Positions 1,539 through 38,032 are shown, counted from the first letter of the stretch. The stretch is 64,000 nucleotides of DNA from an uncultured Gammaproteobacteria bacterium (GCA_964503955.1 CAZDCG010000004.1:16181-80180), one strand, 5' to 3'. The notes: a model not told the origin generated them from the sequence alone. Translations and numbers: made by a program.

Positions 1539-1540
1539 AT

Positions 1541-16905: not shown

Positions 16906-17139
16906 CTAGCGGAGGAAGAACTCGATCTTGCTCTCCTCCTCGTCGAGGCCGATGGCGTCGTTGCTCAGCTCGAGCGAGATGAGCAGGCGCTCGTCCTGCG
17001 GGATGCGAGCGAGAAGGCGGTTGACCCCGCGCTCGTCGCCGTCCTGCACGGCCTTCTTGAACGCATCGCCGAGCCGGGGCTCGACCATCGAGAGAGCGTT
17101 CTGGATCTTCTTGAAGTTGTGCGTGATGGCCCAGTTCAT
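16906..17139 (-). CDS. Island ORF P2, 77 aa (MNWAITHNFKK...), hypothetical
   Basis: High GC3; SD GGAGGGAG upstream; the longer 113-aa ORF in the track probably over-extends the true start. Confidence 0.45.
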   Translation of the reverse strand: MNWAITHNFKKIQNALSMVEPRLGDAFKKAVQDGDERGVNRLLARIPQDERLLISLELSNDAIGLDEEESKIEFFLR

Positions 17140-17362
17140 GGACCTGACCTTTCTCCCTCCAAGGAGGGCGTTGAGAGTTGATCCTTCTTCTTCGGGATAA
17201 TCCCGCAGCTGGCATCCATCAAATGGATGGCAATTGCGGGGGGACAAGAGTTCCTGGGGTGGTTCTCTCGTCCCGAGGGGGAGCGAGCTCGATCTCGCGA
17301 GAGGCAGTCTGCCTCATCTGCAAGAGAGCTCGCTCCCCGGTCGGGTCGCCGGCGGCGAGGTG

Positions 17363-17506
17363 CTAGCGGCGGATGCCGCGCTGGTTCGCCCAGTTCCTGA
17401 CGAACCGGGCGCTGTCGCTCACGTAGTACGGCTTGCGGTCCTCGGCCTGCTTCTCCGTGGAGGTGGCGGGGGTGAGCGCGTCGTTCTTCGTGTTGGGGTT
17501 CGTCAT
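17363..17506 (-). CDS. Island ORF P3, 47 aa, with an Lsr2-like C-terminal DNA-binding motif (FVRNWANQRG versus Lsr2 IREWARRNG)
   Basis: High GC3; SD GAAGGAAAA upstream; motif resemblance recalled from memory only. Confidence 0.35.
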   Translation of the reverse strand: MTNPNTKNDALTPATSTEKQAEDRKPYYVSDSARFVRNWANQRGIRR

Positions 17507-17690
17507 GACGGTTTTCCTTCTTCTCCCAGGCGAACTGCCTGGTCCGGGTTTCCGGACGAGAAGCACAACCTTGTTCTGCTTCTTGTTCGGCCCGGTACAA
17601 CTTGCTTGCGCTGTGTACCGGGTCCCCGGGGGAGCTTCGCGCTCGTCGACTGAGTCGCGCGAAGCTGCCACCCCGGGTTGTCGTGTCGCC

Positions 17691-18224
17691 CTAGCCGACG
17701 TTGCGGATCAGCTTGTGCCGGTCCGAGCAGCGGCGCGGGCGGGGCGAGGCGCCGATGGAGGGCGAGCTCGTCACCGTGGTGACGGTCGTCCAGAGGCGCG
17801 ACTCGTCCGCGATCTTGCCGGCCGCCTCGTAGAGGGCGGCGCGGGCGCGGCGGCTCTTGGGGTTCTTGTCGCTGAGCTCCTGGGCCTTGTCGCGCAGCTC
17901 GCTCAGCTCCTTGCCCGTCGCGGTCTGGAGCTTGGTCTCGATCTCATCGAGCTGCTCGTCGAGCAGGCACTCGGCCTTGGTCTTGTCGTAGTAGGCACGG
18001 TTCTCGGCCCACCTGTTCTTCTCGGCACTGCGGCGCTTGGCCTGCTCGAGCTTCTTGGTGTGCTCGCGCTTGCGGAGCTTGCGCGCGCGGCGGGTCTCGC
18101 CCGTGCCGGACCTGGCGAACTTGCCGCCGGTGTGGCAGACGGGCGAGGGCGCGATGCTCTCGGCGTCCGGGACGGAGCCGAGCAGCTTGAGGAGCGTACC
18201 GACGCGGTTCTTCACGGTCTTCAC
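17691..18224 (-). CDS. Island ORF P4, about 177 aa, basic K/R/E-rich coiled-coil protein (probable GTG start), hypothetical
   Basis: Very high GC3 (aag/gag/ctc/cgc codons); SD GGAAGGAA before the GTG. Confidence 0.5.
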   Translation of the reverse strand: MKTVKNRVGTLLKLLGSVPDAESIAPSPVCHTGGKFARSGTGETRRARKLRKREHTKKLEQAKRRSAEKNRWAENRAYYDKTKAECLLDEQLDEIETKLQTATGKELSELRDKAQELSDKNPKSRRARAALYEAAGKIADESRLWTTVTTVTSSPSIGASPRPRRCSDRHKLIRNVG

Positions 18225-18347
18225 GTATTTCCTTCCTTCTTCTACCGGTTCATCCGGCCAGAGAACATCAAAGGTGATGCGTTCTGGTCGGTCCCGGAGC
18301 CCCACGCGGTTCGCGCGAAGCTCCGGAAGCGTTGCCGCAGCCGACCG

Positions 18348-18626
18348 CTAGGCGGTCTGCAGCTGGGGCGAGATGACGCGCGCGGTCGCCTGTTCGACGA
18401 GCTGGCGCATCCGCTCGCTGAGCCCGAGCGGAGTGATCTTCTCCGCCACGATCTCGATGAGCTCGTCCACGGACTTGACCTTGTCGAGCTCGTCCCTCAG
18501 CCAGCGGACGATCTGGTTGTCGTCCATGCCGACCTGGCTCGCGGGGATCTCCTCGCCGGTCTCGTGATCGACACAGTCCGGGACGAAGCCGTTCAGATTG
18601 CGGAGTTTCCATTCGACGAGAATCAT
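18348..18626 (-). CDS. Island ORF P5, 92 aa, acidic protein (MILVEWKLRNLNGFVPDCVDHETGEEIP...), hypothetical
   Basis: High GC3; SD AAAGGAGA 4-5 nt upstream of the ATG. Confidence 0.5.
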   Translation of the reverse strand: MILVEWKLRNLNGFVPDCVDHETGEEIPASQVGMDDNQIVRWLRDELDKVKSVDELIEIVAEKITPLGLSERMRQLVEQATARVISPQLQTA

Positions 18627-19343
18627 GAGTCTCCTTTGACTCTTGGGGTGGAAGCAGGGCACATGCCCGATTGGAAGGGGAAGGTATGTGAAAGAGCGGC
18701 AGGCATGCGGCCCTTTTTCCACCACAAGAGAAAATGAAAACCCGCCGATGCCAAGATTTTTTCGCTTCCGCCCAAGGCGGATCCGCCTCTGGGGGAAAAG
18801 CTACGAAATCTCAAGAGGTTTTGGCGGGCAGGCCGACTCGCATGAGAAGAGCATATCCTCGTCCCTCCTAAGAGAGCCTTGGGTGATGCGAACGATTTAC
18901 CCAGAACGTAGCCGGAGCCACCTTCTTGGGATAAATTGGACGCGGGACGGGCGTTTGAGCCTTTATGGGGCCTGGGCGCCACGCCGGTCTCTCCTCATGC
19001 GAATCGGCGGTGTCGAGCTTTCAAAGATCAGTCCATCAGCTTGACAAAACACTATATCATATGGTCTAAAATTTGTCAAGACTGGTGAAACAGCTTAGCA
19101 AGAATTTGCTAAAATTAGCGATAAATTCGTGTTAAGATTGTTCAACATCATAAAATAGGACGGACGGGATCTTAGCTTATCTGTACATTTTTGACAAGAG
19201 CAAACATGGGGAAAAAGATCGTTTCATATAAAAAAGCCCTTGTTTTTGTCAGGGATCAAACATGGTGATAGGATTCAATCACGAGAAGAAATGGTCACTG
19301 GACGAGTATTTACCCGTCTAGTGATCTTCATATAAGAGAATTT

Positions 19344-23946: not shown

Positions 23947-24867
23947 GTGGTTCTGAGCCGTCTTAGATCAAGAATTCCGATCCGGAATTCAGAACTCAGA
24001 TTTGCAATCGTTCAAGTGGGGAGACTTCTGCAGGCAGATGTCTTGTTGCTACATCACAAGACATGTTATAATTTCGACAACTGTTGTGAAAAACACATGC
24101 AGGAATTTCCTGAAGATGTTGAGCGTGTTGCTCAGCAAAGCGATGAACAAAGCTTTGCCTATCCCCGCTCGGTTGTTGTCGGGGTCTTTGTCTTATGCGG
24201 TCTCGCTTTGGTTTTGCTCAAAGTGCAACTTGGCGATCGATTGAGTCTTGAAGTGCCAAAGTTCGGACAAGCGGAACTCTCAGGAGATATTTCAAAAAGT
24301 CTGCTTGAAGCGGAAGATGAGCAGCTTAAACGCCAGGATTCCGATGAAGACGGTCTCACGGATTATCAGGAATTGCGCATTTACGGCACAAGCCCGTTTA
24401 TTGCTGATTCCGATTCAGACGGAGAAACAGACGCAGCCGAGATTGCTGCGGGTACTGATCCGAATTGTCCTGAAGGACAGAATTGTTTTCAGCCGCAAAC
24501 GGCTTTTACGGGGGGCACGCTGCAGGAAGTGCTTGCCAATCAGCAGGATCGCCTTCAGGGAGTGCTTGACTCTCCATCAGAAATCCGCCGTCTGCTCATA
24601 GAACAAGGTGCCAGTCCGGCATTGCTGGCCAATATCGATGACCAGTCTCTGCAAATCCTTGCCAATGAAGCCTATCAGGAATATTCCAAGCCGAAAGCGG
24701 AAACCATTGATCTTCTCGCAGGTCTGAATGCTGACCAGCTTCGCGCCCTGCTGGTATCGGCAGGATTAAGCGAGGCGCAAGTGCAAGGCCTGACAGACAA
24801 TGAGCTTACGGATCTTGTGCAATCGGTTTTGACTCAACAAAGAGGACAGATTCAACCCGCGCAATAG
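23947..24867 (+). CDS. Membrane-anchored protein with thrombospondin-type-3-like Ca-binding repeats (DSDEDGLTD, DSDSDGETD); start possibly at 24097
   Basis: TM helix VVVGVFVLCGLALVLL; DxDxDG motifs; stop 3 nt before the giant ORF, so probably co-transcribed. Confidence 0.5.
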   Translation: MVLSRLRSRIPIRNSELRFAIVQVGRLLQADVLLLHHKTCYNFDNCCEKHMQEFPEDVERVAQQSDEQSFAYPRSVVVGVFVLCGLALVLLKVQLGDRLSLEVPKFGQAELSGDISKSLLEAEDEQLKRQDSDEDGLTDYQELRIYGTSPFIADSDSDGETDAAEIAAGTDPNCPEGQNCFQPQTAFTGGTLQEVLANQQDRLQGVLDSPSEIRRLLIEQGASPALLANIDDQSLQILANEAYQEYSKPKAETIDLLAGLNADQLRALLVSAGLSEAQVQGLTDNELTDLVQSVLTQQRGQIQPAQ

Positions 24868-24870
24868 TCT

Positions 24871-27800
24871 ATGCAAACAAGGAAAACAAAAATACTGGTG
24901 GGATTCATGGCGATCGGTCTTTTCATCACGTCTTTTCTTCCAAAGCCGGTTCATGCCGGCCTTCCGGTTTCCGATATCGGATCAATGGTTCAAAGCGCGG
25001 GACAATTTATTAAAAACACGTTTGACAAGATTCAAGAGACATTGTTGGACGAATTGGCAGTTGTTTTTTTCAATAATATCGTTCAGACCTTTGTCAATAA
25101 TCTGGCGGCGGAAACCGCCCAATGGATTGCCAGCGGAGACGAAGGGCAAAAGCCTTTGCTGTTTACCTCCGACTGGCAGGATTATCTTGAGAAAGCCGGT
25201 GAAGACGCGATCGCCTTTGCCGCAATCGGGTTTGCGGACGCGGTTGGCTTAGGAAATATCTGTATTGCTCCGGAAATTGCGATTGACATTATCCTGCCGC
25301 AAATCGAGCAGCCGGGAACAACCAAGCCGCGTTGTAGTCTCGATGATTTAAAGAAAACCTGGGATGTCACAAGCCCGGATTTCTTGCAGAATTTCACCCT
25401 TTCTTTTCAAACCGATCAGAACGACATAGGAATTGCCATTAGCTTCCTTGCGAATCTTGAAAAGGAGAAAACCGAAAAAAAGGAGGCAGCCGAAAATGAA
25501 CGCGATCAAAGCCCTTTTAAAGCCGTGAAAGATGCGATCAGCGGATTAACGGAAACGCCGGCACCTCTGGTTCAGAAGCAGGTGGAAAAAGTTGAAGATG
25601 GCACAACGGTAACTACCTATACATATACCAATCCTATCGGCGTATTGACCGGAGCTATCCAGGTTTTCGCCGGCACCCTCATGGGGCAGTATCTGAATAA
25701 ACTGCAAAGCGGATTTTTCTCCTTGGCTGATGCCGTCCCCGCGGAAGAAGACGTTGCGTCGCTTGTGCGAGGCTCGCTTTCCGATCCTCTTTCCACCGGA
25801 CCAACCGGATCGCAAACAGCACAGCTGAAATTCACCGATGTGTTCAAGCCGAATTTGCGCCAGGCAAATGATTTCAATATTTTGGCTGAACTGGCTGCCT
25901 GTCCTTCTGAAGTTCGATACGCCAGTATTTACAATTGTGTGATTGATTCAGGGTTCATGCAGGCGCTGTCAGGAGGGCGGAATGGATTTTTAACGGTCCG
26001 CGAGGCAGTGCAGCAAAATCTGCTGCATGGAAACTGGGTATTTGGATATGTTAATCCCGGTTCAGGAGCCGAGCCAAGCTATTTGAACGGGTACGCGTAT
26101 AGCAATATGAAAAAGCTGCGCCGGCTCAGAATTGTTCCTGTCGGCTGGGAAATGGCTGCATTGCGCGCACGTTCGCTTGGACAGAGCGTCACCTTGCTTG
26201 ATGTGATCAATTCGTATAACGATCAGGGCTCTCCTTTTTATAAATTGGTTGATCCGGAATGGGTGCTGAAAGTGCCAACCATGCGCTGTGCGGCAAAAGC
26301 ACCTGGGCAGATTCTTCAATCAGGAGGAACCGATCGCGTCGCCGAATGCGTTGATATTCAGGACTGTATTGCCTTTGGCGATGATGGCGAATGCCGAGCG
26401 TGGGCGTATTGTACGGCCGACCAGCGCGAATGGCGATTCCCTGCCGAGCAATGCCCGGAACATTATGCGACCTGCGAACAATTCTATTCTTCCGGCGAAG
26501 ATACGACACAAAATCTCTGGCTTTCTTCCACATTGGAATACGAAGGCTGCAATGCACAGACTGCAGGATGCACATGGTACTCAACGGTTAAAAACTCCGC
26601 CGGCGAATGGCAGGAAACAAATCGTGTCCATTTAACGTCTGCTGTACAGGCCTGTGATCCAAACGATGCGGGATGTCATCTTTATATTCGCATGGGCAAT
26701 GGTTCCAACCTGATCCGTAACGGCAGTTTTGAAGATGATGCGGGGCATAATTATGTGCTCGGACTGGGTGATACGGTTGCGGAAAACAGCATTCCCGACG
26801 GCTGGTCAGCGCGGCAGGCGCTCATCTCACTCAACGATGATGCCCAGCATGGAGAAGCATCCGTCCGCATCCAGCCGCAGCCAGGCGGAGAATGCCGCCC
26901 TGGATTGCAATATGAAGCACCGCTTGGACATTTCGAGATCGGTCAGCAATATACGCTCAGCGGACGCGTCCGAACGGAAAATGTCACTCCGGCAGATTTG
27001 CAGCTGTTCTTTCAGGGAATCACCTTCACCGTTGAAGATGTTAATAATGTTTGGAAATCATTCGCCTTTACCTTTGTCATGCCGTCAACAACACGTTCGT
27101 ACACCTTTGTGCTGGCAGGCAATAACGGGGATTGCGCGAATCTGAATCCAGGCGGAGCGGTTTTCTACGATGCCATCCAGCTTGAACGCAATACCTTGCC
27201 GACCTCCTATAAAGAGTATGGCTCTGTAAACCAGGTCAGCTTGAAGAATGCGCCTGCCTGTACATTTGAAGATGTCGGCTGCCAGCGCTATCTTCCTGTG
27301 GATCGAAAGAACGCGGCAACGGTCACGGGGGTTGCGACAGGACAGGATCTCTGTCCGGCTGAATGTGTCGGGTATGCCACCTACGAACAGCAGGAAACTG
27401 ATCTTGAGCCTGAGCGTATTGTGAATTTTATTCCATCTTCCGCAGATGTTTGTTCCGCTCAGGAAGTCGGTTGTGAGCAGTTCACCAATTTGGACGTAGT
27501 CGCGCGGGGAGGAGAAGGGCTTGAATACTATTCGCAAATCCGCCACTGTGAAAAACCACAGCCGCAATGCCAGACATACTTCGCCTGGGAAGGAAGTGAT
27601 GTAACCGGCTTCCAGCTTGTCAATTTCAGCCTGCTTGCCATCAATGAAGATGGTACGGGCGTGCCGCAAACAACCGATGGCAGCGTCACCTGTGATCCAA
27701 ATGACGCGGATTGCCGCGAGCTGATCGGCGAAGATGGATCACGGTCATTCCGCAATTTGAGCAAAACCATCACCTGTTCGGAAGCCTGCGTGCCGCTGCG

Positions 27801-30800
27801 CGCTCGTCCAGGTCTTGTGAATGAACAGGAATGTATCGCACGGCTTGGCGAATGGGATGCGCTCACGCAGCGCTGTGTTTTCCAGGCGATCGCGTCAGAA
27901 AGCCGTGTCTGCCGCGCCGAAGCGCTTGGCTGCCGCGAGTATCTTGGAACAACCGGCCATAATGTGGCGGTTGTGCTGGCTGAAAACTTTGAGAATGGGA
28001 CAATCGGCGACTGGATCAATGCTTCACTTAGCACAGAGTCTGTCAAAGTCGGCGGCCATTCCATGAAGCTTGGCAATCAGCAGGGAACCATCAATGCGGA
28101 AACCCGAACGGTTGTAGAAGATATCGCCGCCGACACTGCGTATACGCTCGAGCTGAACGCCCGTGCTTCCGTCAGCGATTTCCTCACGGTTACGGCTTAT
28201 CTTGGCAATGCGCCGGTCGAAGCAAACCGCATCGGTAGTTTTGTTACCGGGACCCTGTCATGGAATAAGTACCGTCTCGGGCCGATCACGACTCCTACGG
28301 AGCTTTCAGGCGTTCAGCAGCTGATTCTCGTGGTAGAAGGAGCCTCTAATAAGCCGGATATTATCAGCCTATTTGCGGACGATATCACCTTGCGCCGCAT
28401 CAATAGCAGTTTGTATCTCGCAAAAGATTCTTGGGAAACACCAAATACATGTGAAACAAATCCTCCGCTGGCCGGCGGTTCAGCTTCGCGTTCTATGGTG
28501 GGATGCCAGGCATACCGGATTGAGGGAGACACTTCAAATCAGACGCAGTTTCTCAAATCATTTACACGGCTTTGTTCAGAAGACAAGATCGGATGTGAAG
28601 CCCTGATTGACACGCATAATTCTGTTGCGCCATACCGCGAAGTGTATCAGCCCGGCAATCTCGCCGAAGTTGTTGTGCCTGAAGATAGTGTTACCTATCT
28701 GGTTAATAGAAAAGAGTATCGATGCCAGGCGGAACAAGTGGGCTGCATGGAACTTGGCAAGCCGGTTTTTGACCAGAACAATCAGATTACTTCATTCAAC
28801 TCCGTCTATCTCAAAAATAATCCGGACCAGTACGCAAGTATTCTCTGTCCGCAGGAATCACTGCGATGCGAAGCATTTACCAATAGCCGCAATGAAGTCG
28901 TATACGCCAAGAATCCGGGTCTGCAGCAATGTGAATACCGCGAAGTGCCAAATTCCTTCCCGGTGCGCTACGCATGGTTCAAGGTCGGTGGAACCGAAGA
29001 AAATCCTGTCGACTGTTTGCAGGCAAAGGATAATAGCTATGTGAACCGATGTGTTCCTTCAGCCGTGAGCTGTACGCAGTTTTATGAACCGATTACGCAG
29101 CAGTCATATTATTACAAGAAGAGCACCTTGCCGGGGACAGCGGCTTCTGAATGCAATGGCGTGGTGGACTGGAAGAAAGGCTGCGTCTTGTTTGATGATC
29201 AGAGCGTACGCAGCAAGTATTTCAAATCCGGTGACGATATTGATATCGTCGGCGCGGCGCAGGGCTGCCAGACAGGCGATGTCGGCTGCAATACAAATAC
29301 CTTGCTTCGCGTTCAGCTTGACCGTGTCTGCAGCCAGTGGCTGACCGGTGTCAGCTCAGGTTATTCCTGGGATCAGAATCTGCAGACCTACAAATCATTT
29401 AATTACGATATTGGACGTTGTCTGGAATATGATCCACTCAATCCTGCGGTTTGTCTGCAATGGGATAATGCGGATGACAAGCCGTTGCTCACAGAAGAAT
29501 TCTACAAAAACCGCGATACATCATGGGTGGGCGATGATTATACCGGATACTCCATTCCATTTGCTTATCCTGTTGAAACGCTCAAGCAATACAGTCTGAA
29601 TATCACTGAAGACGGCACTCCGTCCGAGTATCGTCTGGCATATCTTGAAGTTCCTCCGAATCAGCAAAGCTGTCTTACCTCTGCCGATTGTCCGCAGGGA
29701 GGCGGCATTGAGCAGGTTTGCCGTTTGGAATTGAATCCGGACAGCGGAGATTTCCAAGGATCATGTTTCATCAACCGCGGAATCTCACGTGGAGGAACAG
29801 CATCTGAGGGAGAATGCCGCGCGTATCCGGAAAACGATTCTCCATTCCCTCCATCGGTTGCCACCTTCTATCCTGATACAGATGCCGAAAATCCGGGAGG
29901 CATCAGCTCAGTCAATCCGCTCTTTGCCAATGCCAATATCGGTACGGCCGGAGAGAATGTCGAATGTAATTACGTCAAAGCCTACTATGCGGGTGATCGC
30001 CGCTATTACTCGCTTGATACGATTATTCCATCAACCATTACCGTGCGAGGCGAGCCGCAAAAATTCGACAAAAAAGAAGTCTATTACGGCTGGGAAGGCT
30101 ATTGTCTGGAACGAGACAATTCCCGCATCATTAATGGAGACCGTTCACAAACTGCTTGCTTGACCTGGTATCCGGTTGATCTCATCCAGGGCGCGAGAGA
30201 CTTGAACAATACCGATATCAATGCGGGATACTACGCGGATCATGAACAGACCATGTACTGCGCGCAGGCGGTCTTTGCCGAATATCTCACTCCAAGGGAA
30301 TCCTGCGGGGCATGTCCTTCACCACACTATGAAACCATCGTTCAGCGCAGCGGCACCTGTACGCATCCGTTTAAGGCTCCCGACTTGCTTGAATCAACCG
30401 GCACAAGATTCTTGAATCTCAATGAGACAGATCAAACGATTATTTTCGGCCTTGTTTCATTCTTCAGCTTTGGCGCGGGAGCAAGCATATTCCAGGCCCT
30501 GGCAGCCTTTGGCGTGCTGGATCTGGCAAGCGATCTGCTTGGAACGGATGAATATCCTGAAGTGACCTGTATTCCGCGTTACGGCGAAGGGTGGTATCCA
30601 AAAGTCTATCCAAATCCTCCGTTTGATCCGGAAAATCCGAACAATGCCCTTATGTGCAGCGTGGTGGCGCGTATCCAAAGCCCAGCTGGCGTGAACAAAG
30701 CCTATACAGACCGCATCCATGATACTGAATATATCGTGCCGGAGCTTGGCTGGACATACATCCAGCAAAACGTTCCGTTTGGCAGCGTTCGTGCGGGAAC

Positions 30801-32370
30801 AGAAAAGCTTGAAGAACTTGTTGAACCATTATTGCTGAAGCCGGCAACGCAGTTTGTAGAATGCAATGACTGCCGCGTTCCAGGTGAAGATCCTGAAAAT
30901 CCGGATCCATTGAAATTCGGTGTTTGCCAGGATCGTGATCCAAATAAGAAAGGACGTCCATGTCCGCTCTTCCCGAATGCCGGTTCGCCGTACAGTCTGC
31001 TCTCGCTTTATCCGCAATGGGCCAATAATGATTGGGTCCGCGTGCGAGCCGATAATCAGGTCTGGACAGATCAGGCCATCAATCAGCCATATACGCGAAC
31101 CGAACAGTTGGAAGACGGCACAAGACGGCTGCAGGAACTCTTTGCTAAATCCTACGGGGTCTGGTATTGGCAGCTCGGATTTGAAGCGGTTTGCGTCGGA
31201 ACATGCCAGGGAGGACCAAGAGAAGGTGAATTCTGCAAATCAGTCAACGAATGCGGTGATACGGATTCATCTATTGCCTATACATGCCAGCAGGCCAACC
31301 AGGAAACCGGCCTCTGTGTCGGCGGAGTAAAACACACATATTCATGCACAAGCGATCTGGATTGTTCCGGACCAGCCATTGAGGATCTCCAGACCGACTT
31401 TGTTGATATTCCCGGCTTCAACTGTGTTGAAGCGCCTGATGACGCGAATAGCGTGTTCATCTGTGAAGGAGGTCCATGGAAAGGCAATGCGTGCCAAACC
31501 GATGCCGACTGCGCTCCGCCGGTTCTTGACGGTAAATGCGATTTCACGCAGAACCGCTGTGTCGGCCAGGTCAATGGCCAGACAATCTGGTCCGCGAATT
31601 CCGGACAGATCTGCAATAACTCAGCTGAGTGCAATGCGGTTGCCACCTGCCGCGTGGATCGATGTTCCACCGAGATTGGTAAACCAAATACCGGGCTCTG
31701 CGACGGCTTGCAGGCCGGACAAGCATGCGGTGATTCTTCCGGACGAAATCAGTATGTTCAGGATGATGCCATTGGCTGGGACCTGATCCGTGACAATCCA
31801 TCCGTTGCCGAGCCGCCTGTGATTCAGCCGACCATTCCAGATTCCACCAGTCCAAACGGCTATGCGGAAGGATTCATTGCGAATGATGGCGGATTCTCCG
31901 TCAATGGAAGGGTAAACGGCACAATCACGAGCACGGAAGGGCGCGCGCCGGTAACCGTCAGCTTCTATGCCTATAACAGCAATGGAGAACAAATGCCATT
32001 GCGTGTGATCATGGTTGATTGGGGCGACAATACTGACCTGTCTACCTCGGTTGGTTCCTTCAAGAATCATAAACATGTCTGCCGGCGCTCCTGCAGCTAT
32101 AATGTCCTGATCTCCTGTGATGCGGACAGAGATTGCCAGAACCAGCAATTCCCTGACGCGACCTGTAATCCGGAAAATTTCGGCGACAGCCTTGATGCAT
32201 GCGTAGAAGACACGGAAAATGAATTCGGTTTCTTCTCCTTCTCTCATACCTATACGTGTGAAGGCGCAACCGACTGTGTTTACACGCCTCGCGTACTGGT
32301 ACGTGATAACTGGGGAGCCGTCACGCGCGTGACATGGCCTGGACAAATCGTGGTCTCTCCAAGACAGTAA
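24871..32370 (+). CDS. Giant (2499 aa) cysteine-rich extracellular protein with an N-terminal signal-anchor and at least two CBM4/9-like (galactose-binding-like) modules; putative adhesin/surface protein
   Basis: Uninterrupted 7.5 kb ORF; N-terminal TM; more than 100 Cys in CxxC/CxnC patterns; NGSFEDDAGHNY...SVRIQP and ENFENGTIGDW...SMKLGN resemble CBM_4_9 starts. Confidence 0.8.
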   Translation: MQTRKTKILVGFMAIGLFITSFLPKPVHAGLPVSDIGSMVQSAGQFIKNTFDKIQETLLDELAVVFFNNIVQTFVNNLAAETAQWIASGDEGQKPLLFTSDWQDYLEKAGEDAIAFAAIGFADAVGLGNICIAPEIAIDIILPQIEQPGTTKPRCSLDDLKKTWDVTSPDFLQNFTLSFQTDQNDIGIAISFLANLEKEKTEKKEAAENERDQSPFKAVKDAISGLTETPAPLVQKQVEKVEDGTTVTTYTYTNPIGVLTGAIQVFAGTLMGQYLNKLQSGFFSLADAVPAEEDVASLVRGSLSDPLSTGPTGSQTAQLKFTDVFKPNLRQANDFNILAELAACPSEVRYASIYNCVIDSGFMQALSGGRNGFLTVREAVQQNLLHGNWVFGYVNPGSGAEPSYLNGYAYSNMKKLRRLRIVPVGWEMAALRARSLGQSVTLLDVINSYNDQGSPFYKLVDPEWVLKVPTMRCAAKAPGQILQSGGTDRVAECVDIQDCIAFGDDGECRAWAYCTADQREWRFPAEQCPEHYATCEQFYSSGEDTTQNLWLSSTLEYEGCNAQTAGCTWYSTVKNSAGEWQETNRVHLTSAVQACDPNDAGCHLYIRMGNGSNLIRNGSFEDDAGHNYVLGLGDTVAENSIPDGWSARQALISLNDDAQHGEASVRIQPQPGGECRPGLQYEAPLGHFEIGQQYTLSGRVRTENVTPADLQLFFQGITFTVEDVNNVWKSFAFTFVMPSTTRSYTFVLAGNNGDCANLNPGGAVFYDAIQLERNTLPTSYKEYGSVNQVSLKNAPACTFEDVGCQRYLPVDRKNAATVTGVATGQDLCPAECVGYATYEQQETDLEPERIVNFIPSSADVCSAQEVGCEQFTNLDVVARGGEGLEYYSQIRHCEKPQPQCQTYFAWEGSDVTGFQLVNFSLLAINEDGTGVPQTTDGSVTCDPNDADCRELIGEDGSRSFRNLSKTITCSEACVPLRARPGLVNEQECIARLGEWDALTQRCVFQAIASESRVCRAEALGCREYLGTTGHNVAVVLAENFENGTIGDWINASLSTESVKVGGHSMKLGNQQGTINAETRTVVEDIAADTAYTLELNARASVSDFLTVTAYLGNAPVEANRIGSFVTGTLSWNKYRLGPITTPTELSGVQQLILVVEGASNKPDIISLFADDITLRRINSSLYLAKDSWETPNTCETNPPLAGGSASRSMVGCQAYRIEGDTSNQTQFLKSFTRLCSEDKIGCEALIDTHNSVAPYREVYQPGNLAEVVVPEDSVTYLVNRKEYRCQAEQVGCMELGKPVFDQNNQITSFNSVYLKNNPDQYASILCPQESLRCEAFTNSRNEVVYAKNPGLQQCEYREVPNSFPVRYAWFKVGGTEENPVDCLQAKDNSYVNRCVPSAVSCTQFYEPITQQSYYYKKSTLPGTAASECNGVVDWKKGCVLFDDQSVRSKYFKSGDDIDIVGAAQGCQTGDVGCNTNTLLRVQLDRVCSQWLTGVSSGYSWDQNLQTYKSFNYDIGRCLEYDPLNPAVCLQWDNADDKPLLTEEFYKNRDTSWVGDDYTGYSIPFAYPVETLKQYSLNITEDGTPSEYRLAYLEVPPNQQSCLTSADCPQGGGIEQVCRLELNPDSGDFQGSCFINRGISRGGTASEGECRAYPENDSPFPPSVATFYPDTDAENPGGISSVNPLFANANIGTAGENVECNYVKAYYAGDRRYYSLDTIIPSTITVRGEPQKFDKKEVYYGWEGYCLERDNSRIINGDRSQTACLTWYPVDLIQGARDLNNTDINAGYYADHEQTMYCAQAVFAEYLTPRESCGACPSPHYETIVQRSGTCTHPFKAPDLLESTGTRFLNLNETDQTIIFGLVSFFSFGAGASIFQALAAFGVLDLASDLLGTDEYPEVTCIPRYGEGWYPKVYPNPPFDPENPNNALMCSVVARIQSPAGVNKAYTDRIHDTEYIVPELGWTYIQQNVPFGSVRAGTEKLEELVEPLLLKPATQFVECNDCRVPGEDPENPDPLKFGVCQDRDPNKKGRPCPLFPNAGSPYSLLSLYPQWANNDWVRVRADNQVWTDQAINQPYTRTEQLEDGTRRLQELFAKSYGVWYWQLGFEAVCVGTCQGGPREGEFCKSVNECGDTDSSIAYTCQQANQETGLCVGGVKHTYSCTSDLDCSGPAIEDLQTDFVDIPGFNCVEAPDDANSVFICEGGPWKGNACQTDADCAPPVLDGKCDFTQNRCVGQVNGQTIWSANSGQICNNSAECNAVATCRVDRCSTEIGKPNTGLCDGLQAGQACGDSSGRNQYVQDDAIGWDLIRDNPSVAEPPVIQPTIPDSTSPNGYAEGFIANDGGFSVNGRVNGTITSTEGRAPVTVSFYAYNSNGEQMPLRVIMVDWGDNTDLSTSVGSFKNHKHVCRRSCSYNVLISCDADRDCQNQQFPDATCNPENFGDSLDACVEDTENEFGFFSFSHTYTCEGATDCVYTPRVLVRDNWGAVTRVTWPGQIVVSPRQ

Positions 32371-32405
32371 TAATTGACAAAGAAACAACCTAATCGTACA
32401 GTACA

Positions 32406-32434
32406 AAACGTGCCAGCCAGGCACGTTTTTGTTT
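32406..32434 (+). terminator. Rho-independent terminator of the giant gene (aaacgtgcc-agcca-ggcacgttt-ttgttt)
   Basis: 9-bp stem plus T-run 35 nt after the stop. Confidence 0.7.
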
Positions 32435-32521
32435 CCCTTTGCCGGGGTGGTGGAACCCGCCGTCCATCGGTCGTCGAACTCCCTTAGGACTGGCGGGCAG
32501 GTTGGCAGACACAATTTATAT

Positions 32522-32608
32522 GCCGGGGTGGTGGAATTGGTAGACACGCGTGGCTTAGGACCACGTGGGGTAAAACCTGTGCAGGTTCGAGTCCTGTCCC
32601 CGGTACCA
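32522..32608 (+). tRNA. tRNA-Leu (anticodon TAG), class II with long variable arm, CCA encoded
   Basis: GCCGGGG acceptor stem, GTGGAATTGGTAGAC D-arm, anticodon loop CTTAGGA, long variable arm, GGTTCGAGTCC T-arm, ...CCCCGGTACCA. Confidence 0.85.
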
Positions 32609-32779
32609 GCAAAGCTCCCGCATGATTGTATGCGGGGGCTTTGCTTTTATTCAGAGGACTCGAACCTTGGGAAAGGGGCGTGGGGAAAACGGAAGTTTTC
32701 ACCACTGGGCGGTTTTTGAGGAAGGGGTACAGCGAAGCGCCATAGGGGAAACGCCGTTTCCCCTTGGAGAGCGAAGCGA

Positions 32780-33509: not shown

Positions 33510-34522
33510 CTGTCTACCAATGAAATGTCCGATTTCTTAGAAATGCGGACCTCTTTCTGGGAATTATCTTATGCAAAATCTCCAAAGTGAACAGAATACT
33601 GTTTTCTAGGCAAGTCGCATAATGATTTCTGGAAAGGAAATCCTTGCGGCTGGCTTACGGGCCAGTTTTTTCGTCCCTCAAATTTCACCCCCGAGACTGG
33701 ATGATCCGGTCATTCGATCCCGGTTGTGAAGACTGCATTTTGACAATTGAATATAACGCAATACAAACCAGTAATGTCACATGCATCTTTGTGAAGATAC
33801 ATGCGACGCAAATGCAATTTACAATGCAGTGTCTTAAATGACACTGCTGCTACAAATGCTTATTGTGGCCATTCAAGTTCATTGAATGGTTACCTCAATA
33901 AGGGCAAATGTGTGAATGCCTAGACATCTGGAGACGATGAAGGACGTGGCAGCCTGCGAAAAGCTTCGGTGAGGTGGCAAGCAACCTGTGACCCGGAGAT
34001 GTCCCAATGGGGAAACCCGGCCGTGTAAAGCACGGTCATCACATGACTGAATACATAGGTCAGTGAAGACAACCTAGGGAACTGAAACATCTTAGTACCT
34101 AGAGGAAAAGAAAACAGCAAGACCCTTTATAAATCTGCAGACATCACTTCGGTGCTGACTGTCAGATTTATAAAGGACGTGATTCCCTTAGTAGCGGCGA
34201 GCGAACGGGGAAAAGCCTAAACCCTATCGGTGGGCCTTTCTGTAAGATGTGGGATTTATCTTATATCAAGCAGTCAGGTTAAAGGATTGTGCCGTTGCCG
34301 ATTCGGTGTTGTGAGGCGAGTCGTTAGGAATCACAATATTCCTAGATAGTTGGAGTTCATATAGAAGAAGTTCCTGGAATCGGAACGCCAAAGAAGGTGA
34401 TAGCCCTGTAATCGAAATATGCTTCTCCACCTATGGACTATGTCCTCAAGTACAGCGGGACTCGTGAAATCCTGTTGGAATCAGGGGTGACTATGCTCCA
34501 AGGCTAAATACTACCAGATGAT

Positions 34523-34559
<37 letters not shown>

Positions 34560-36061
34560 CACCCCGGTGAGGGGTCGTGAAATAGACCTGAAACCATTTG
34601 CCTACAAGGAGTCGAAGGTCCTTCGGGACTGACGGCGTGCCTATTGAAGAATGAGCCAACGAGTTTGTTCTATGTTGCTTGTTTAATCTCTATATAGAGA
34701 GAAGGCATAGTGAAAGCGAGGCTTAACCGCCGAACTGAGAGGAATAATTCCCGTCTCGGGTCATTGACCCGTCCGGGGATTTATTCCTCTCTTCTGCAGC
34801 ATAGACAAGACCCGAAGCCGGGTGATCTATCCATGGCCAGGTTGAATCTCATCGAAAGATGAGAGGAGGACCGAACCCACGCGCCGTGCAACACGCGGGG
34901 ATGAGTTGTGGATAGCGGAGAAATTCCAATCGAACTCGGCTATAGCTGGTTCTCCCCGAAACAGTTTTTGGACTGGCCTGCGATCGTCCCCTCTGGGGGT
35001 AGAGCACTGTTTGAGGTTCGGGCCTTCGGGTACCGTCCACAGACAAACTCCGAATACCGGAGGATTATAATCGCAGAGTTACACTATGGGGGCTAAGCTC
35101 CATTAGTGAAAAGGGAAACAGCCCAGATCGCCAAATAAGGTCCTTAAATCTTCGTTAAGTGTGAAAGGTGGTGAGGCGGCTTATACAACGAGGAGGTTGG
35201 CTTAGAAGCAGCCATCCTTTAAAGAAAGCGTAATAGCTCACTCGTCCAGCTGCCTTGCGCCGAAAATGTAACGGGGCTAAACGAAGTACCGAATTTGCGG
35301 GTCTATACCTTTCGAGGTATGGGCGGTAGGGGAGCGTTCTTATCTGCGTTGAAGCCCAAACGTGAGAATGGGTGGAGTGATAAGAAGTGAGAATGTTGGC
35401 ATAAGTAGCAGAAATGCGGGTGAGAACCCCGCACACCGAAAACCCAAGGTTTCCTGGGCCATGAAAATCAGCTCAGGGTTAGTCGGTCCTAAGGCGAGGC
35501 TGAAAAGCGTAGTCGATGGACAGCAGGTTAATATTCCTGCACCACGGTGTTGACTGATGGAGTGACGCTTGATCAAAGTCTCCGCGTAGTTTGGTTATCT
35601 ACGTTGGGGCAGGCAACTGGCGCTATTGGCAAATCCGTAGCGCAATACAGAAGCCTGCATCTGAAGAGGAAGCCCTCGGGTGGAATCGACGGAGGCGGAG
35701 GTTGAGCCAAGAAAAACTTCTAGGGTTAATCAGCATCGTGTCCGTACCGTAAACCGACACAGGTGGGTGAGGCGAGAAGCCTCAGGTGAACGAGAGAAAC
35801 ATGGTTAAGGAACTCGGCAAAACAGCGGTCGTACCTTCGGTATAAGGCCTGCCTACGCCCTTCGGGGTTGTAGGTCGCAGCGAAAGACTCCAAGCGACTG
35901 TTTACCAAAAACACAGGTCCCTGCTAAAGCGCAAGCTGATGTATAGGGGCTGATGCCTGGCCAGTGTCCGAACGTTAAGAGGAGAGGTGATCCAATTTAT
36001 TGGCGTAGCCTTGAATCCAAGCGCGGATGAACGCCGGCGATAACTATAATCGTCCTAAGGT

Positions 36062-36831
36062 GAATTTGTTGCCTTAGTGGGGTGAAAGCCCCCTCTTCCG
36101 AACTGCCTATGCCGGGCAGATGTAGGAGAAAAATCTGGCTATATGCTGGAATATCTGGAGAATTCTGTGCTCCTAGGGTATACTGTCACCATAGTATGCC
36201 TAGGAAAAACGCCACAGATGTAGCTTTGGTTGAAGATTTACCAAAGTTGCCAGACAATCAGCAGGAAAGACCAGAAATGATTGGTTGGATTGTAGGATTT
36301 ACTGACGGTGAAGGTTGCTTCTCTGTTAGTCTTATCCGTAACAAAACAACCTCTACTGGGTGGCAGGTGTTTCCTGAGTTTGTTATCACGCAAGGAGAGA
36401 AAAGCAGATCAGCGCTTGAATTACTTCAAAAACATTTCAAATGCGGACAGCTAATCCTCAATAAGCGCTATGACAATCATCGCGAACATCTAATAAAATA
36501 CTGCGTCAGGTCTCGTAGAGACTTGAAAGAAAAAATTATTCCCTTCTTCAAAAAAGCTCAGCTTTTGACGGCGAAGAGAAATGATTTTGAAATCTTTTGT
36601 AAGATCATCGTTCTTATGGAAGAACGAAAGCATCTGCATCTTTCAGGATTGAAAACAATCGCGAAACTGATCGAACAGATGAACCGCAGAAAACCCTCCT
36701 CATTTCTGGAATCCTCAGAGACTACACGCCGGAACGATACATAATCGTAAGATATAGTCCGACCCCTATGGCGACATAGGGAGAATGGCAGAAATGACCA
36801 TTCCTCTACATGTGGTAGAAGTAACAAATTG
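36062..36831 (+). mobile_element. Group I intron inserted after U of CCTAAGGU (E. coli about position 1917) in 23S rRNA, ending in omega-G
   Basis: 23S exon sequence breaks after cgtcctaaggt and resumes exactly at agcgaaattccttgtcggg; the intron houses a LAGLIDADG ORF. Confidence 0.7.
36196..36744 (+). CDS. LAGLIDADG-family homing endonuclease (single-motif type); the better SD-supported start is at 36277 (MIGWIVGFTDGEGCF)
   Basis: IVGFTDGEGCF LAGLIDADG motif and overall I-CreI-like size (about 155-180 aa). Confidence 0.8.
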   Translation: MPRKNATDVALVEDLPKLPDNQQERPEMIGWIVGFTDGEGCFSVSLIRNKTTSTGWQVFPEFVITQGEKSRSALELLQKHFKCGQLILNKRYDNHREHLIKYCVRSRRDLKEKIIPFFKKAQLLTAKRNDFEIFCKIIVLMEERKHLHLSGLKTIAKLIEQMNRRKPSSFLESSETTRRNDT

Positions 36832-36884
<53 letters not shown>

Positions 36885-37109
36885 GGAGACTGTCTCAACC
36901 ATGTACTCGGTGAAATTGCATGACGAGTAAAGATGCTCGTTACGCGTAGCAGGACGAAAAGACCCCGTGAAGCTTTACTACAGCTTGATATTGTCTTATT
37001 GCTTCAACTGTTCAGCATAGGTGGGAGCCTTCGGGCGCCAGTGAGATACCACCCTGTTGTCGTGGTAAGGCTAACCTTGCGCCGTCTATCCGGTGCGGGG
37101 ACAGTATCT

Positions 37110-37144
<35 letters not shown>

Positions 37145-37363
37145 AAGTAACGGAGGCGTTTACAAAGGTTGGCTAGCTCCGGATGGAAATCGGAGCGATA
37201 GTGTAAAGGCACAAGCCAGCTTTACTGCAAGACAGACACGTCGCGCAGTTACGAAAGTAGAACTTAGTGATCCGACGATCCAATATAGGATGGTCGAAGC
37301 TCATCGGATAAAAGTTACTCCGGGGATAACAGGCTGATCGCGCCCAAGCGTCCACAGCGACGG

Positions 37364-37425
<62 letters not shown>

Positions 37426-37438
37426 TGGCTGTTCGCCA

Positions 37439-37490
<52 letters not shown>

Positions 37491-38032
37491 CTATCCGCTA
37501 TGCGCGTTAAGATTTGAGAACCTCCTTCTCTAGTACGAGAGGACCGAGAAGGACGAACCTCTAGTGTACCAGTTGTCCCACCAGGGGCACCGCTGGGTAG
37601 CTATGTTCGGGTCGGATAAGTGCTGAAGGCATCTAAGCACGAAGCCGTGTTCAAGATTAGATCTTTATTCCTCCTGGGAGACGACCAGGTTGATAGGCTG
37701 CAGGTGTAAGCCCCGTGAGGGGTTCAGCCGAGCAGTACTAATGGATTGAGGTAACCTTTCAGTGAATTTCTCTGCGTCATATTTCGCGCGCTTCTTTGTT
37801 GAGAGCTCCGGTGCTCGACGCCGTACATCAGTACGGTTTACTCCGCACCTCGCTCTCGCCTCGAATCGCACTGAAATCTGAACGAGATTAAAGCCGCTGA
37901 AAAGATAGCATAAATACGTTTGCGATCACATGCGACTCGCAAAGGTGCAGTTGATATTATTGGAAGTATTGCGTTCAGAGAAATGGAATGGAAAGAGACG
38001 ACTAATCATCTAGTCTGCTCCTTCTGGTGCCA

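What the first reader, a model, noticed from the sequence alone, without database searches (positions are those of the whole stretch)
23947..32370. Two-gene surface module: Ca-binding-repeat membrane protein plus a 2499-aa cysteine-rich giant protein with CBM-like domains
The 7.5 kb ORF encodes a signal-anchored protein with more than 100 cysteines in CxxC/Cx(n)C patterns and at least two jelly-roll carbohydrate-binding-module-like segments (NGSFEDDAGHNY..., ENFENGTIGDWINASL...SMKLGNQQGT...). It also has repeated CQ/CE-rich segments in the C-terminal third and no recognisable enzymatic domain. It is preceded, 3 nt upstream, by a membrane protein carrying thrombospondin-type-3-like DxDxDG calcium-binding repeats. 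In a minimal genome, spending about 12 % of this window on one extracellular protein suggests a host- or substrate-attachment factor, probably disulfide-rich and Ca-dependent.
Basis: partly seen in the sequence, partly recalled or inferred. Interest (0 to 1): 0.6.

Follow-up and report, generated by a model that had tools for sequence, protein, structure and literature searches.

The report
Giant lectin-like protein tied to secretion machinery
This is an intact two-gene module from an ultra-small Patescibacteria bacterium, made of a small calcium-binding membrane protein and a 2,499-residue secreted, cysteine-rich, sugar-binding giant. In most related species the same pair leads the type IV secretion gene cluster, so it is a good candidate for the missing host-contact part of that machine.

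Summary
The giant has 98 Cys, 3.9% against 0.72% in the other window proteins. CxxC is almost absent (2 copies). The recurrent motif is Cx6C, with 14 copies.

Both CBM-like segments are real. One is a Pfam CBM_4_9 match and the other an AlphaFold/Foldseek match to CBM16/22. No enzymatic domain was found. The N-terminus is a conserved, cleavable-looking Sec signal peptide, not an anchor.

The family is large, with at least 1,257 clusters at 50% identity and at least 581 species, apparently all Patescibacteria. Members run 2,433-3,859 aa, and 50 of 61 have an even Cys count.

The main new point is context. The order KsgA, TSP3 protein, giant is nearly universal. In 41 of 55 loci with enough downstream sequence, a VirB6-like gene follows on the same strand, and the loci that reach further continue with VirB3, TrsD-like and VirB4 genes. 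In this window and its close relatives the module is detached from those genes.

Best reading: a disulfide-stabilised, glycan-binding host-contact protein linked to the Patescibacteria type IV secretion system. That function is inferred, not shown.

The parts
24064..24072 (+). Extended -10 promoter-like element TGTTATAAT, 25 nt upstream of ATG 24097. It lies inside the GTG-extended ORF.
   Evidence: Read directly from the sequence. The consensus scan did not list it because there is no good -35 element. Inference only.
24097..24867 (+). Partner gene encoding a 256-aa single-pass membrane protein with two TSP3-type DxDxDG calcium-binding repeats.
   Evidence: Pfam TSP3_bac E 1.2e-8. The exact 256-aa product is on record from NCBI. 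Homologues sit immediately upstream of the giant gene in 73 loci, mostly with gaps of 0-43 nt.
24169..24225 (+). Predicted transmembrane helix of the partner protein (aa 25-43, SVVVGVFVLCGLALVLLKV).
   Evidence: Hydropathy 2.63. Coordinates.
24337..24486 (+). Conserved ectodomain core of the partner: TSP3 repeat 1 (24337-24372), TSP3 repeat 2 (24406-24441) and the Cys pair NCPEGQNC (24463-24486).
   Evidence: Family consensus DTDxDGLxDYDELxxYxTSPYLxDSDSDGxxDxxEIxxGxDPNCPxGxxC. Coordinates.
24871..32370 (+). Giant gene encoding a 2499-aa secreted Cys-rich protein. The end coordinate includes the stop codon.
   Evidence: Forty homologues were found, and 1257 representative clusters.
24871..24957 (+). 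Sec signal peptide (aa 1-29), with a probable cleavage site after VHA.
   Evidence: The n/h/c regions and the AxA motif are conserved in 66 homologues. The cleavage site is inferred from the -3/-1 rule. No predictor was run.
24958..26280 (+). Family-specific N-terminal domain (aa 30-470). It always sits at the N-terminus and its fold is unknown. Aa 335-470 (25873-26280) form a confidently modelled alpha/beta subdomain.
   Evidence: AF2 pLDDT is 84-98 for aa 340-470 and low for aa 1-330. No Pfam hit in any of 46 members and no PDB profile hit. Foldseek found nothing in PDB or BFVD.
26287..26700 (+). Cys-rich beta-hairpin region 1 (aa 473-610) with 11 Cys, including three Cx6C motifs.
26704..27114 (+). 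CBM-like module 1 (aa 612-748), with a single Cys.
   Evidence: Pfam CBM_4_9 E 1.5e-6, 29 bits against a cutoff of 25.9.
27238..27957 (+). Cys-rich all-beta scaffold region 2 (aa 790-1029) with 16 Cys. This is the most conserved part of the protein.
   Evidence: AF2 pLDDT 85-95. Conservation profile.
27958..28440 (+). CBM-like module 2 (aa ~1030-1190), with no Cys.
   Evidence: Foldseek matches CBM16, CBM22, CBM4 and CBM61 at E 2e-7 and TM 0.62-0.70. Weak Pfam CBM_4_9 match at E 0.087 that spans the whole profile.
28441..30360 (+). Cys-rich beta scaffold region 3 (aa 1191-1830) with 31 Cys.
   Evidence: AF2 confidence is high to about aa 1300 and moderate after that. Invariant Cys.
30364..30570 (+). 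Lineage-specific insertion (aa 1832-1900) that holds the hydrophobic stretch at aa 1856-1874.
   Evidence: Absent from P0002-type homologues.
30571..32367 (+). Variable C-terminal third (aa 1901-2499). It includes a Cys-dense stretch at aa 2100-2300 and a C-terminal beta domain at aa ~2340-2499. There is no LPXTG motif and no C-terminal transmembrane segment.
   Evidence: Lowest conservation in the protein. Twenty Cys in aa 2100-2300. No Pfam or PDB hit. This region was not modelled.
32405..32439 (+). Terminator-like hairpin (10-bp stem) followed by a T-run, 35 nt after the stop codon. It probably marks the end of the two-gene unit.
   Evidence: This is a pattern match only.

Best explanation
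The two genes form a conserved surface module of Patescibacteria. The giant protein is exported through Sec and its signal peptide is removed. It folds outside the cell into a long, rigid, beta-rich scaffold held together by roughly 49 disulfides, many of them short Cx6C loops. This scaffold displays two lectin-type CBM jelly-rolls and a fast-evolving C-terminal third.

The small partner is a single-pass membrane protein. Its short conserved ectodomain is a pair of Ca-binding TSP3 repeats followed by a Cys pair. It most likely docks or organises the giant at the membrane.

Ancestrally, and still in most relatives, the pair leads the operon that encodes the Patescibacteria type IV secretion system: an extended VirB6-like protein, VirB3/PrgI, a TrsD/TraC-like protein and VirB4. 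I therefore read the giant as the host-contact and target-recognition component of that machine. It would bind glycans on the host envelope, a role analogous to the surface adhesins encoded at the head of Gram-positive conjugation operons. In this genome and its near relatives the module has become physically detached from the T4SS genes.

Shown: the sequence features, two of the folds, the family size and the gene order. Inferred: disulfide bonding, glycan binding, Ca-dependent docking, and any functional coupling to the T4SS.
For: Secretion and folding:
- Classical signal peptides with an AxA site occur in the window protein and 66 homologues.
- There is no LPXTG motif or C-terminal transmembrane segment.
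- About 45 Cys are invariant at 25-30% identity.
- Cys content is 3.9% against 0.72% in the 27 other window proteins.
- The Cys number is even in 50 of 61 full-length members, P = 2.3e-7.
- Cx6C occurs 14 times against 3.8 expected.
- AF2 confidence is high for aa 340-470 and 790-1300.

Glycan-binding folds:
- Pfam CBM_4_9 matches aa 612-748.
- Foldseek matches CBM16/22/4/61 for aa ~1030-1190.
- The CBM modules and the C-terminal third are less conserved than the scaffold.

Partner protein:
- It carries TSP3_bac repeats.
- It lies immediately upstream in 73 loci, mostly 0-43 nt away.

Link to the T4SS:
- The order KsgA, TSP3 protein, giant held in all 5 loci first examined.
- By tblastn, 79 of the 88 sequences held (87 loci plus the window) have a TSP3 match and 66 a KsgA match.
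- In 41 of 55 loci with at least 3 kb downstream, a VirB6-like gene follows on the same strand, often within 300 nt.
- That gene encodes 6-8 transmembrane helices plus a ~700-aa tail.
- Where the sequence reaches far enough, PrgI, a TraC-like gene and VirB4 follow.
- In the complete genome CP129476.1 (L073) all these genes sit in one block with gaps of 44 nt or less. Pfam confirms PrgI (3e-9) and the VirB4 ATPase (P-loop_TraG 7e-28) there.

Literature:
- The T4SS is essential for epibiotic growth of a Saccharibacterium (PMC10633639).
- KsgA is reported as abundant near virB4, and 'no adhesins such as PrgB were detected' (PMC12102498).
Against: - No experiment or expression data bear on this protein.
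- In this window, in L001 and in L008 no T4SS gene is adjacent. None was found anywhere in the 64-kb window by tblastn or jackhmmer. Fourteen of the 55 loci lack the adjacency. The module can therefore persist apart from the T4SS genes.
- I could not check whether this genome has a T4SS at all.
- Conserved gene order in reduced genomes can reflect inherited synteny rather than shared function. KsgA and LeuRS are also syntenic here.
- The 'VirB6-like' label rests on topology and one weak precomputed TrbL_3 hit.
- CBM folds also occur in enzymes, toxins and phage fibres, and no ligand is known.
- The N-terminal 330 aa are poorly modelled. Aa 611-779 and 1831-2499 were not modelled at all.
- No DsbA-like gene occurs in the window.
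Confidence: 0.5

Rival explanations
1. The giant is a general envelope or surface-layer protein, or a stand-alone adhesin, that has nothing to do with type IV secretion. Under this reading, its position next to T4SS genes in other genomes is inherited synteny in a conserved chromosomal neighbourhood.
For: The module stays intact without adjacent T4SS genes in the window, L001, L008 and 11 other loci. Housekeeping genes are syntenic with it too: KsgA in 66 loci and LeuRS in 35. The published survey attributes the KsgA-virB4 proximity to location near the replication origin (PMC12102498).
Against: In 41 of 41 cases the VirB6-like gene is on the same strand. Spacing is often operon-like, for example 8 nt in L073. 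The arrangement holds across divergent lineages named Falkow-, Uhr-, Kuenen- and Nomurabacteria and Parcubacteria, at only 25-30% protein identity.
Confidence: 0.27
2. The giant is a secreted envelope-degrading enzyme whose catalytic domain is too divergent to recognise. It would be a functional stand-in for the VirB1/PrgK-type cell-wall hydrolase of Gram-positive T4SSs, with the CBMs targeting it to the substrate.
For: CBM4/9/16/22 modules are typically appended to glycoside hydrolases (established knowledge; PDB matches). VirB1 homologues are rarely found near virB4 in Patescibacteria (PMC12102498). The confidently folded N-terminal subdomain at aa 340-470 has no assigned function.
Against: No catalytic family was detected by Pfam, NCBIfam or PDB sequence and profile searches. 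Foldseek with the N-terminal model found no lysozyme, transglycosylase or peptidase fold in PDB, with a best E of 0.55. The invariant residues are mostly Cys, Gly, Pro and aromatics rather than an obvious acid/base set.
Confidence: 0.1
3. The giant is a secreted toxin or effector that acts on the host cell, with CBM-like receptor-binding domains as in Cry, Vip or binary toxins.
For: The Foldseek list includes Cry11, Vip3/Vip4 and iota-toxin Ib chains. The gene lies next to a secretion system in relatives.
Against: Those toxin matches have rmsd of 15-36 A over long alignments and reflect only the shared beta-sandwich. No pore-forming or enzymatic toxin domain was found. A Sec signal peptide does not fit a substrate delivered from the cytoplasm through VirB4 (plus established T4SS biology).
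Confidence: 0.06

Closest known systems
Surface adhesins at the head of Gram-positive conjugative T4SS operons (for example PrgB aggregation substance, PrgA and PrgC of pCF10)
   Same: It is a large Sec-exported surface protein. In most relatives it is encoded at the 5' end of an MPF-FATA-type T4SS cluster, upstream of VirB6-, VirB3- and VirB4-like genes. It has a plausible role in contact with the target cell.
   Different: There is no sequence or fold similarity. There is no LPXTG sortase signal. It is about twice the size, is rich in Cys, and has CBM modules instead of a glucan-binding or polymer-adhesin domain. The published survey found no PrgB homologues in Patescibacteria (PMC12102498).
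Large cysteine-rich extracellular proteins of CPR bacteria (described for Peribacteria, PMC4736985)
   Same: Both are large, carry signal peptides, have unusually high Cys content and come from a CPR organism. Both are proposed to act in attachment.
   Different: The Peribacteria proteins average 1,655 aa and 7.2% Cys, lie in a 14-gene cluster, and show weak similarity to Myxococcus Cys-rich repeats and pappalysin. The protein here has 3.9% Cys, a Cx6C motif, CBM modules and a fixed TSP3 partner. I did not test homology between the two sets.
CBM4/CBM9/CBM16/CBM22 carbohydrate-binding modules
   Same: Module 1 passes the Pfam CBM_4_9 threshold. Module 2 superposes on CBM16 and CBM22 structures at TM 0.62-0.70.
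   Different: These modules are not attached to any recognisable glycoside hydrolase. Sequence identity to solved CBMs is 13-19%. Ligand-binding residues were not assessed.
Bacterial thrombospondin type-3 repeat proteins (Pfam TSP3_bac; for example Myxococcus CglD and MtsD)
   Same: The partner has two DxDxDGxxDxxE repeats above the Pfam threshold. It gives weak NCBIfam matches to CglD and MtsD over the repeats.
   Different: The partner is only 256 aa, with one transmembrane helix and two repeats. The NCBIfam scores (12-16 bits) are far below the equivalog cutoffs (400-800 bits), so it is not a member of those families.
Giant bacterial adhesins (RTX/LapA/SiiE type, Ebh)
   Same: It is of multi-thousand-residue size, is extracellular and has a Ca-binding element in the system.
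   Different: It is not built from tandem Ig/BIg or RTX repeats. It has no T1SS signal. The Ca-binding repeats sit on a separate small protein. The scaffold appears to be stabilised by disulfides.

Membership tests
Pfam CBM_4_9 (PF02018) carbohydrate-binding module | A sequence match above the curated gathering score | tested here: met
   Aa 612-748 score 29.0 bits against a cutoff of 25.9, E 1.5e-6, covering profile positions 1-129 of 136. The second module (aa 1030-1200) scores only 13.6 bits, E 0.087.
Pfam CBM_4_9 (PF02018) carbohydrate-binding module | Beta-sandwich jelly-roll fold | tested here: met
   For module 2, AF2 pLDDT is about 90 and Foldseek matches CBM16, CBM22, CBM4 and CBM61 at E 2e-7 to 2e-5 and TM 0.62-0.70. 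Module 1 was not modelled.
Pfam CBM_4_9 (PF02018) carbohydrate-binding module | Binding of a carbohydrate ligand | not testable with these tools
   This needs glycan arrays or pull-downs with the recombinant modules.
Bacterial TSP3 repeat proteins (PF18884) | DxDxDGxxDxxE repeats above the gathering score | tested here: met
   35.1 bits against a cutoff of 25, in two stretches. The motif is conserved in the upstream gene of 73 loci.
Bacterial TSP3 repeat proteins (PF18884) | Ca2+ binding | not testable with these tools
   Inferred from the known chemistry of thrombospondin type-3 repeats.
Patescibacteria / MPF-FATA-like type IV secretion system (as an accessory component) | Encoded in one gene cluster with virB4 and other T4SS genes | tested here: inconclusive
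   Not met in this window: no T4SS gene was found in 64 kb. Met in relatives: 41 of 55 loci have a VirB6-like gene downstream on the same strand, and L073 shows one tight block through PrgI and VirB4.
Patescibacteria / MPF-FATA-like type IV secretion system (as an accessory component) | Homology to a described T4SS component (VirB1-11, PrgA/B/C, TrsD and others) | tested here: not met
   Pfam, NCBIfam and PDB searches returned no T4SS family for the giant or its partner.
Patescibacteria / MPF-FATA-like type IV secretion system (as an accessory component) | Physical or functional dependence on the T4SS | not testable with these tools
   This needs genetics, co-purification or cryo-ET.
Sortase-anchored Gram-positive adhesins (PrgB-like) | C-terminal LPXTG motif with a hydrophobic, positively charged tail | tested here: not met
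   The C-terminus is ...VTWPGQIVVSPRQ, and none of the 60 homologue C-termini listed ends in a sorting signal.
PKD domain (suspected for the C-terminal ~160 aa from the WGD...HTY...DNWG motifs) | A match to a Pfam PKD model | tested here: not met
   There was no hit at E<=1 on the native tile, and none at E<=5 after I removed the Cys-rich insert. The resemblance remains a recollection only.
Phage tail-fibre or receptor-binding proteins | A match to a phage protein family or viral fold | tested here: not met
   PHROGs gave no family. BFVD Foldseek on the N-terminal model gave a best E of 0.26. The only hint is a sub-threshold NCBIfam GTA_spike_fiber match on aa 690-780 (23 bits against a cutoff of 36).

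The most novel reading that the evidence does not exclude
The giant protein may be more than an adhesin. It could be a structural part of the Patescibacteria T4SS outside the membrane: the envelope-spanning stalk or conduit that replaces the missing VirB7/9/10 core or carries the VirB2-like pilins. That would be a candidate for the 'lance'-like tube seen by cryo-ET in a Saccharibacterium (PMC11880426). The TSP3 protein would then be its Ca-dependent membrane socket.
Probability: 0.12. Interest if true: 0.85.

Novelty: new variant of a known kind. Interest (0 to 1): 0.6.

Why it matters
Patescibacteria make up a large share of bacterial diversity and live attached to other microbes. Their type IV secretion system is the first shown to be essential for growth of the bacterium that carries it (PMC10633639, PMC12857230). 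What it contacts or transports is unknown, and the published genomic survey found no adhesin (PMC12102498).

A conserved, very costly two-gene module sits at the head of that gene cluster in dozens of divergent species, with lectin folds and a variable distal end. It is a concrete, testable candidate for the host-recognition part of the machine. It could also help predict host range from genomes.

The family exceeds 1,200 clusters at 50% identity. Apart from its CBM modules, it has no family model and no known fold.

Tried and rejected
- A second word-index homologue search with the alignment returned no new sequences, so the AF2 alignments stayed at 39 rows.
- The idea of a PKD-like C-terminal domain was tested and got no support.
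- An internal transmembrane helix at aa 1856-1874 was rejected, because it lies in an insertion that many homologues lack.
- The prophage or tail-fibre reading was rejected.
- The pseudogene reading was rejected. The ORF is intact, collinear with its homologues, and keeps the invariant residues.
- The proteins between the giant gene and PrgI in relatives have no Pfam family. 'VirB6-like' therefore rests on topology and one weak hit.
- Looking up the contig of the window's own protein failed. I could not identify the assembly or check the rest of the genome for virB4.
- The supplements held for the T4SS survey paper do not mention CBM_4_9 or TSP3_bac, but one file was truncated when stored.
- I could not confirm a possible orthologue among the highly expressed 'galactose-binding fold' genes of methanogen-parasitising Paceibacteria (PMC10936435).

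Full report
**1. The observation**

The window carries an intact ORF at 24871-32370 (+) of 2499 aa. A second ORF ends at 24867, 3 nt before it.

The giant has 98 Cys. That is 3.92%, against 0.72% pooled over 27 other proteins of the window. CxxC occurs only twice. The over-represented spacing is Cx6C, usually C-x5-G-C-x2-[YF]. It occurs 14 times against 3.8 expected, and none of 2000 shuffles reached 14.

Pfam places a CBM_4_9 module at aa 612-748 (E 1.5e-6, above the gathering score) and finds nothing else. Tiled Pfam scans, NCBIfam, PHROGs and PDB sequence searches find no enzymatic or other named domain. The only other signals are a weak full-length CBM_4_9 match on aa 1030-1200 (E 0.087) and a sub-threshold NCBIfam spike-fibre match on aa 690-780.

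The upstream ORF has two TSP3_bac repeats above threshold and one hydrophobic helix. Its real start is most likely ATG 24097, giving 256 aa. Three things point that way. The 256-aa product is exactly the one on record from NCBI. Homologues are 199-291 aa. A TGTTATAAT extended -10 element lies 25 nt upstream, inside the GTG-extended frame.

A terminator-like hairpin follows the giant's stop codon at 32405-32429. The pair therefore looks like a bicistronic unit, though that is an inference.

**2. Organism and surroundings**

The homologues are from Parcubacteria/Patescibacteria MAGs. The window otherwise holds housekeeping genes:
- LeuRS, FemAB and KsgA upstream.
- tRNA-Leu, a 23S rRNA interrupted by a LAGLIDADG ORF, 5S rRNA and PGK downstream.

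No type IV secretion gene was detected anywhere in the 64 kb by tblastn or iterated HMM searches.

**3. The family**

A word-index search gave 40 homologues of 1,674-3,859 aa.

An exhaustive phmmer search with aa 1-610 against 1.84 billion cluster representatives gave 1,257 hits at E<=1e-3 and 965 at E<=1e-30. In nearly all the matched region lies at or near the N-terminus of the hit, and most hits are 2,400-3,400 aa.

Many record titles read 'uncultured Gammaproteobacteria bacterium'. Those loci share the same Patescibacteria-type synteny, so I take the titles to be placeholder or mislabelled names. I could not verify that.

Among 61 full-length members, length is 2,433-3,859 aa and Cys content 2.4-5.3% (median 3.9%). 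There are 9-22 Cx6C motifs and about one CxxC per protein. Fifty of the 61 have an even number of Cys (binomial P = 2.3e-7).

At 25-30% identity about 45 Cys are invariant. Conservation is highest in the Cys-rich scaffold regions (aa 400-600, 800-1000, 1200-1500). It is lower in the two CBM modules and lowest in the C-terminal third.

The hydrophobic stretch at aa 1856-1874 sits in an insertion that many homologues lack.

All N-termini inspected are classical Sec signal peptides with an AxA-type site. None of the C-termini listed has a sorting signal or transmembrane segment.

**4. Structure**

AlphaFold2 used 39-row alignments.
- Tile aa 1-610: mean pLDDT 61. Aa 1-330 are low-confidence long helices, aa 340-470 a confident alpha/beta subdomain (84-98), and aa 470-610 moderate beta hairpins.
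- Tile aa 780-1830: mean pLDDT 75. Aa ~790-1300 are all-beta at 85-95.

Foldseek against PDB matched the second tile to CBM16, CBM22, CBM4 and CBM61 modules over about 150 residues (E 2e-7, TM 0.62-0.70). The longer 'toxin' alignments have rmsd of 15-36 A and are not credible.

The first tile had no match in PDB or BFVD. A 46-member profile of the N-terminal 650 aa hit nothing in PDB, and none of the 46 members has a Pfam family there.

Most of the protein is folded but of unrecognised fold.

**5. Genomic context in relatives: the main finding**

The first five homologue loci all show KsgA, then a small TSP3 protein, then the giant.

Two distant loci continue with two to four large unannotated ORFs and then PrgI (VirB3), a TraC-like/TrsD protein and a VirB4-type ATPase.

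The session holds 87 loci plus the window (88 sequences searched):
- tblastn with the window's TSP3 protein matches 79 of the 88 sequences, and a homologue lies immediately upstream of the giant in 73 of them, mostly with gaps of 0-43 nt.
- KsgA is present in 66.
- Of 55 loci with at least 3 kb downstream of the giant, 41 (75%) have a homologous 800-1,060-aa protein on the same strand, often within 300 nt.
- Loci that extend far enough also have PrgI, the TraC-like gene and VirB4.

That 800-1,060-aa protein has 6-8 transmembrane helices in its first ~330 aa and a ~700-aa hydrophilic tail. One fragment gives a weak TrbL_3 hit. This is the architecture of an 'extended VirB6' (PMC12857230), but Pfam does not confirm it.

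In the complete genome CP129476.1 (L073) the order is KsgA, TSP3, giant (2,970 aa), VirB6-like (973 aa), a 582-aa protein, PrgI, TraC-like, VirB4 (641 aa). All gaps are 44 nt or less. Pfam confirms PrgI (3e-9) and the ATPase (P-loop_TraG 7e-28, AAA_10, DUF87).

The 14 loci without the adjacency include the window and its close relatives L001 and L008. In that clade the module has been separated from the T4SS genes. Whether the genome still has a T4SS elsewhere could not be checked.

A membrane-anchored DsbA-like gene lies within 10 kb upstream in 13 loci, but not in the window.

**6. What is known**

- The Patescibacteria T4SS is related to Gram-positive (MPF-FATA) conjugation systems. It usually lacks a relaxase and is thought to be repurposed (PMC12102498).
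- It is essential for epibiotic growth of Southlakia epibionticum (PMC10633639, PMC12857230).
- The survey paper reports KsgA as abundant near virB4. It explains this by proximity to the replication origin and states that no adhesins such as PrgB were detected. Neither its text nor the supplements held mention CBM_4_9 or TSP3 proteins.
- Large Cys-rich extracellular proteins have been noted in other CPR bacteria and proposed to act in attachment (PMC4736985).
- I found no paper describing this family or its link to the T4SS cluster in the searchable library. That library does not cover everything.

**7. Mechanism proposed**

Shown: the signal peptide motif, the Cys statistics, two CBM-type modules, folded beta scaffolds, the fixed partner gene, and the conserved position at the head of T4SS clusters in relatives.

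Inferred:
- The protein is exported by Sec and its signal peptide is cleaved.
- Its Cys form about 49 disulfides. The even counts and invariant positions support this.
- The CBMs bind glycans on a host envelope.
- The variable C-terminal third tunes specificity.
- The partner's membrane-tethered TSP3 pair binds Ca2+ and docks the giant.
- The module serves host contact for the T4SS.

The analogy is to the surface adhesin genes prgA, prgB and prgC at the 5' end of the pCF10 transfer operon. That comparison comes from my own knowledge, not from a test here.

I put this reading at 0.5. The main rival is a T4SS-independent surface protein kept nearby by synteny, at about 0.27. A cryptic hydrolase (0.1) and a toxin (0.06) have little support.

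**8. Verdict**

The interpretation as an attachment factor is plausible and now better grounded, but it remains unproven. Ca-dependence is only inferred.

The finding is one member of a very large, uncharacterised, Patescibacteria-specific family. The added value is its systematic association with the T4SS locus.

Novelty: a new variant of a known kind, namely a secretion-system-associated giant adhesin-like protein. Interest: 0.6.

Noticed in passing
window 33888-37758, ORF 36082-36744 (+): The 23S rRNA gene spans 3,871 nt against a 2,925-nt model. It contains a 220-aa LAGLIDADG_1 homing-endonuclease ORF (E 4.5e-23), so there is an intron-like insertion, as is common in CPR rRNA genes. No 16S rRNA gene lies next to the 23S-5S pair in the window.
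   Followed up: partly
window 46677-47903, 48489-49427, 49975-50646 (+): Three consecutive genes resemble ATP-citrate lyase or citryl-CoA synthetase/lyase parts: ATP-grasp_2 plus Citrate_bind, CoA-ligase, and a citrate synthase C-terminal domain. This is an unusual metabolic set for a reduced Parcubacteria genome.
   Followed up: no
loci L003, L014, L019, L020, L023, L031, L034, L037, L051, L062, L070, L077, L083 (within 10 kb upstream of the giant gene): A membrane-anchored DsbA/thioredoxin-like gene recurs near the module in 13 relatives. That would fit a need for extracellular disulfide formation. None is present in the window.
   Followed up: partly
loci L003, L005, L007, L022, L050, L073 (downstream of the giant gene): Between the giant gene and PrgI, relatives carry conserved proteins with no Pfam family. 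One is an 800-1,060-aa protein with 6-8 N-terminal transmembrane helices and a long hydrophilic tail (VirB6-like). Others are 320-350-aa and 500-740-aa soluble proteins, and a 200-330-aa protein with a C-terminal transmembrane helix. These are likely uncharacterised T4SS parts.
   Followed up: partly
record titles of many loci (for example L008, L010, L013): Many MAG records that carry this Patescibacteria-type locus are titled 'uncultured Gammaproteobacteria bacterium'. The names look like placeholders or mislabels.
   Followed up: no
window 1505-3940 (+), 5852-8050 (-), 14458-15702 (-): Other large envelope proteins lie in the same window: a SpoIID protein with Ig-like repeats (0 Cys), a protein with three lamin-tail domains, and a LysM plus M23 peptidase. 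Unlike the giant, all are Cys-poor.
   Followed up: no
window 16001-18000; ORF 17433-18737 (+): There is a local GC rise to 0.59, against about 0.50 elsewhere. It overlaps a 434-aa ORF with no Pfam family.
   Followed up: no
window 32522-32608 and 32608-32645 (+): A tRNA-Leu gene sits between the giant gene and the 23S rRNA. It is followed directly by a strong 17-bp terminator-like hairpin.
   Followed up: no
PMC10936435 (Paceibacteria parasitising methanogens): [quoted passage not shown] They might be orthologues of this family. The sequences and lengths were not available in the supplements held.
   Followed up: partly
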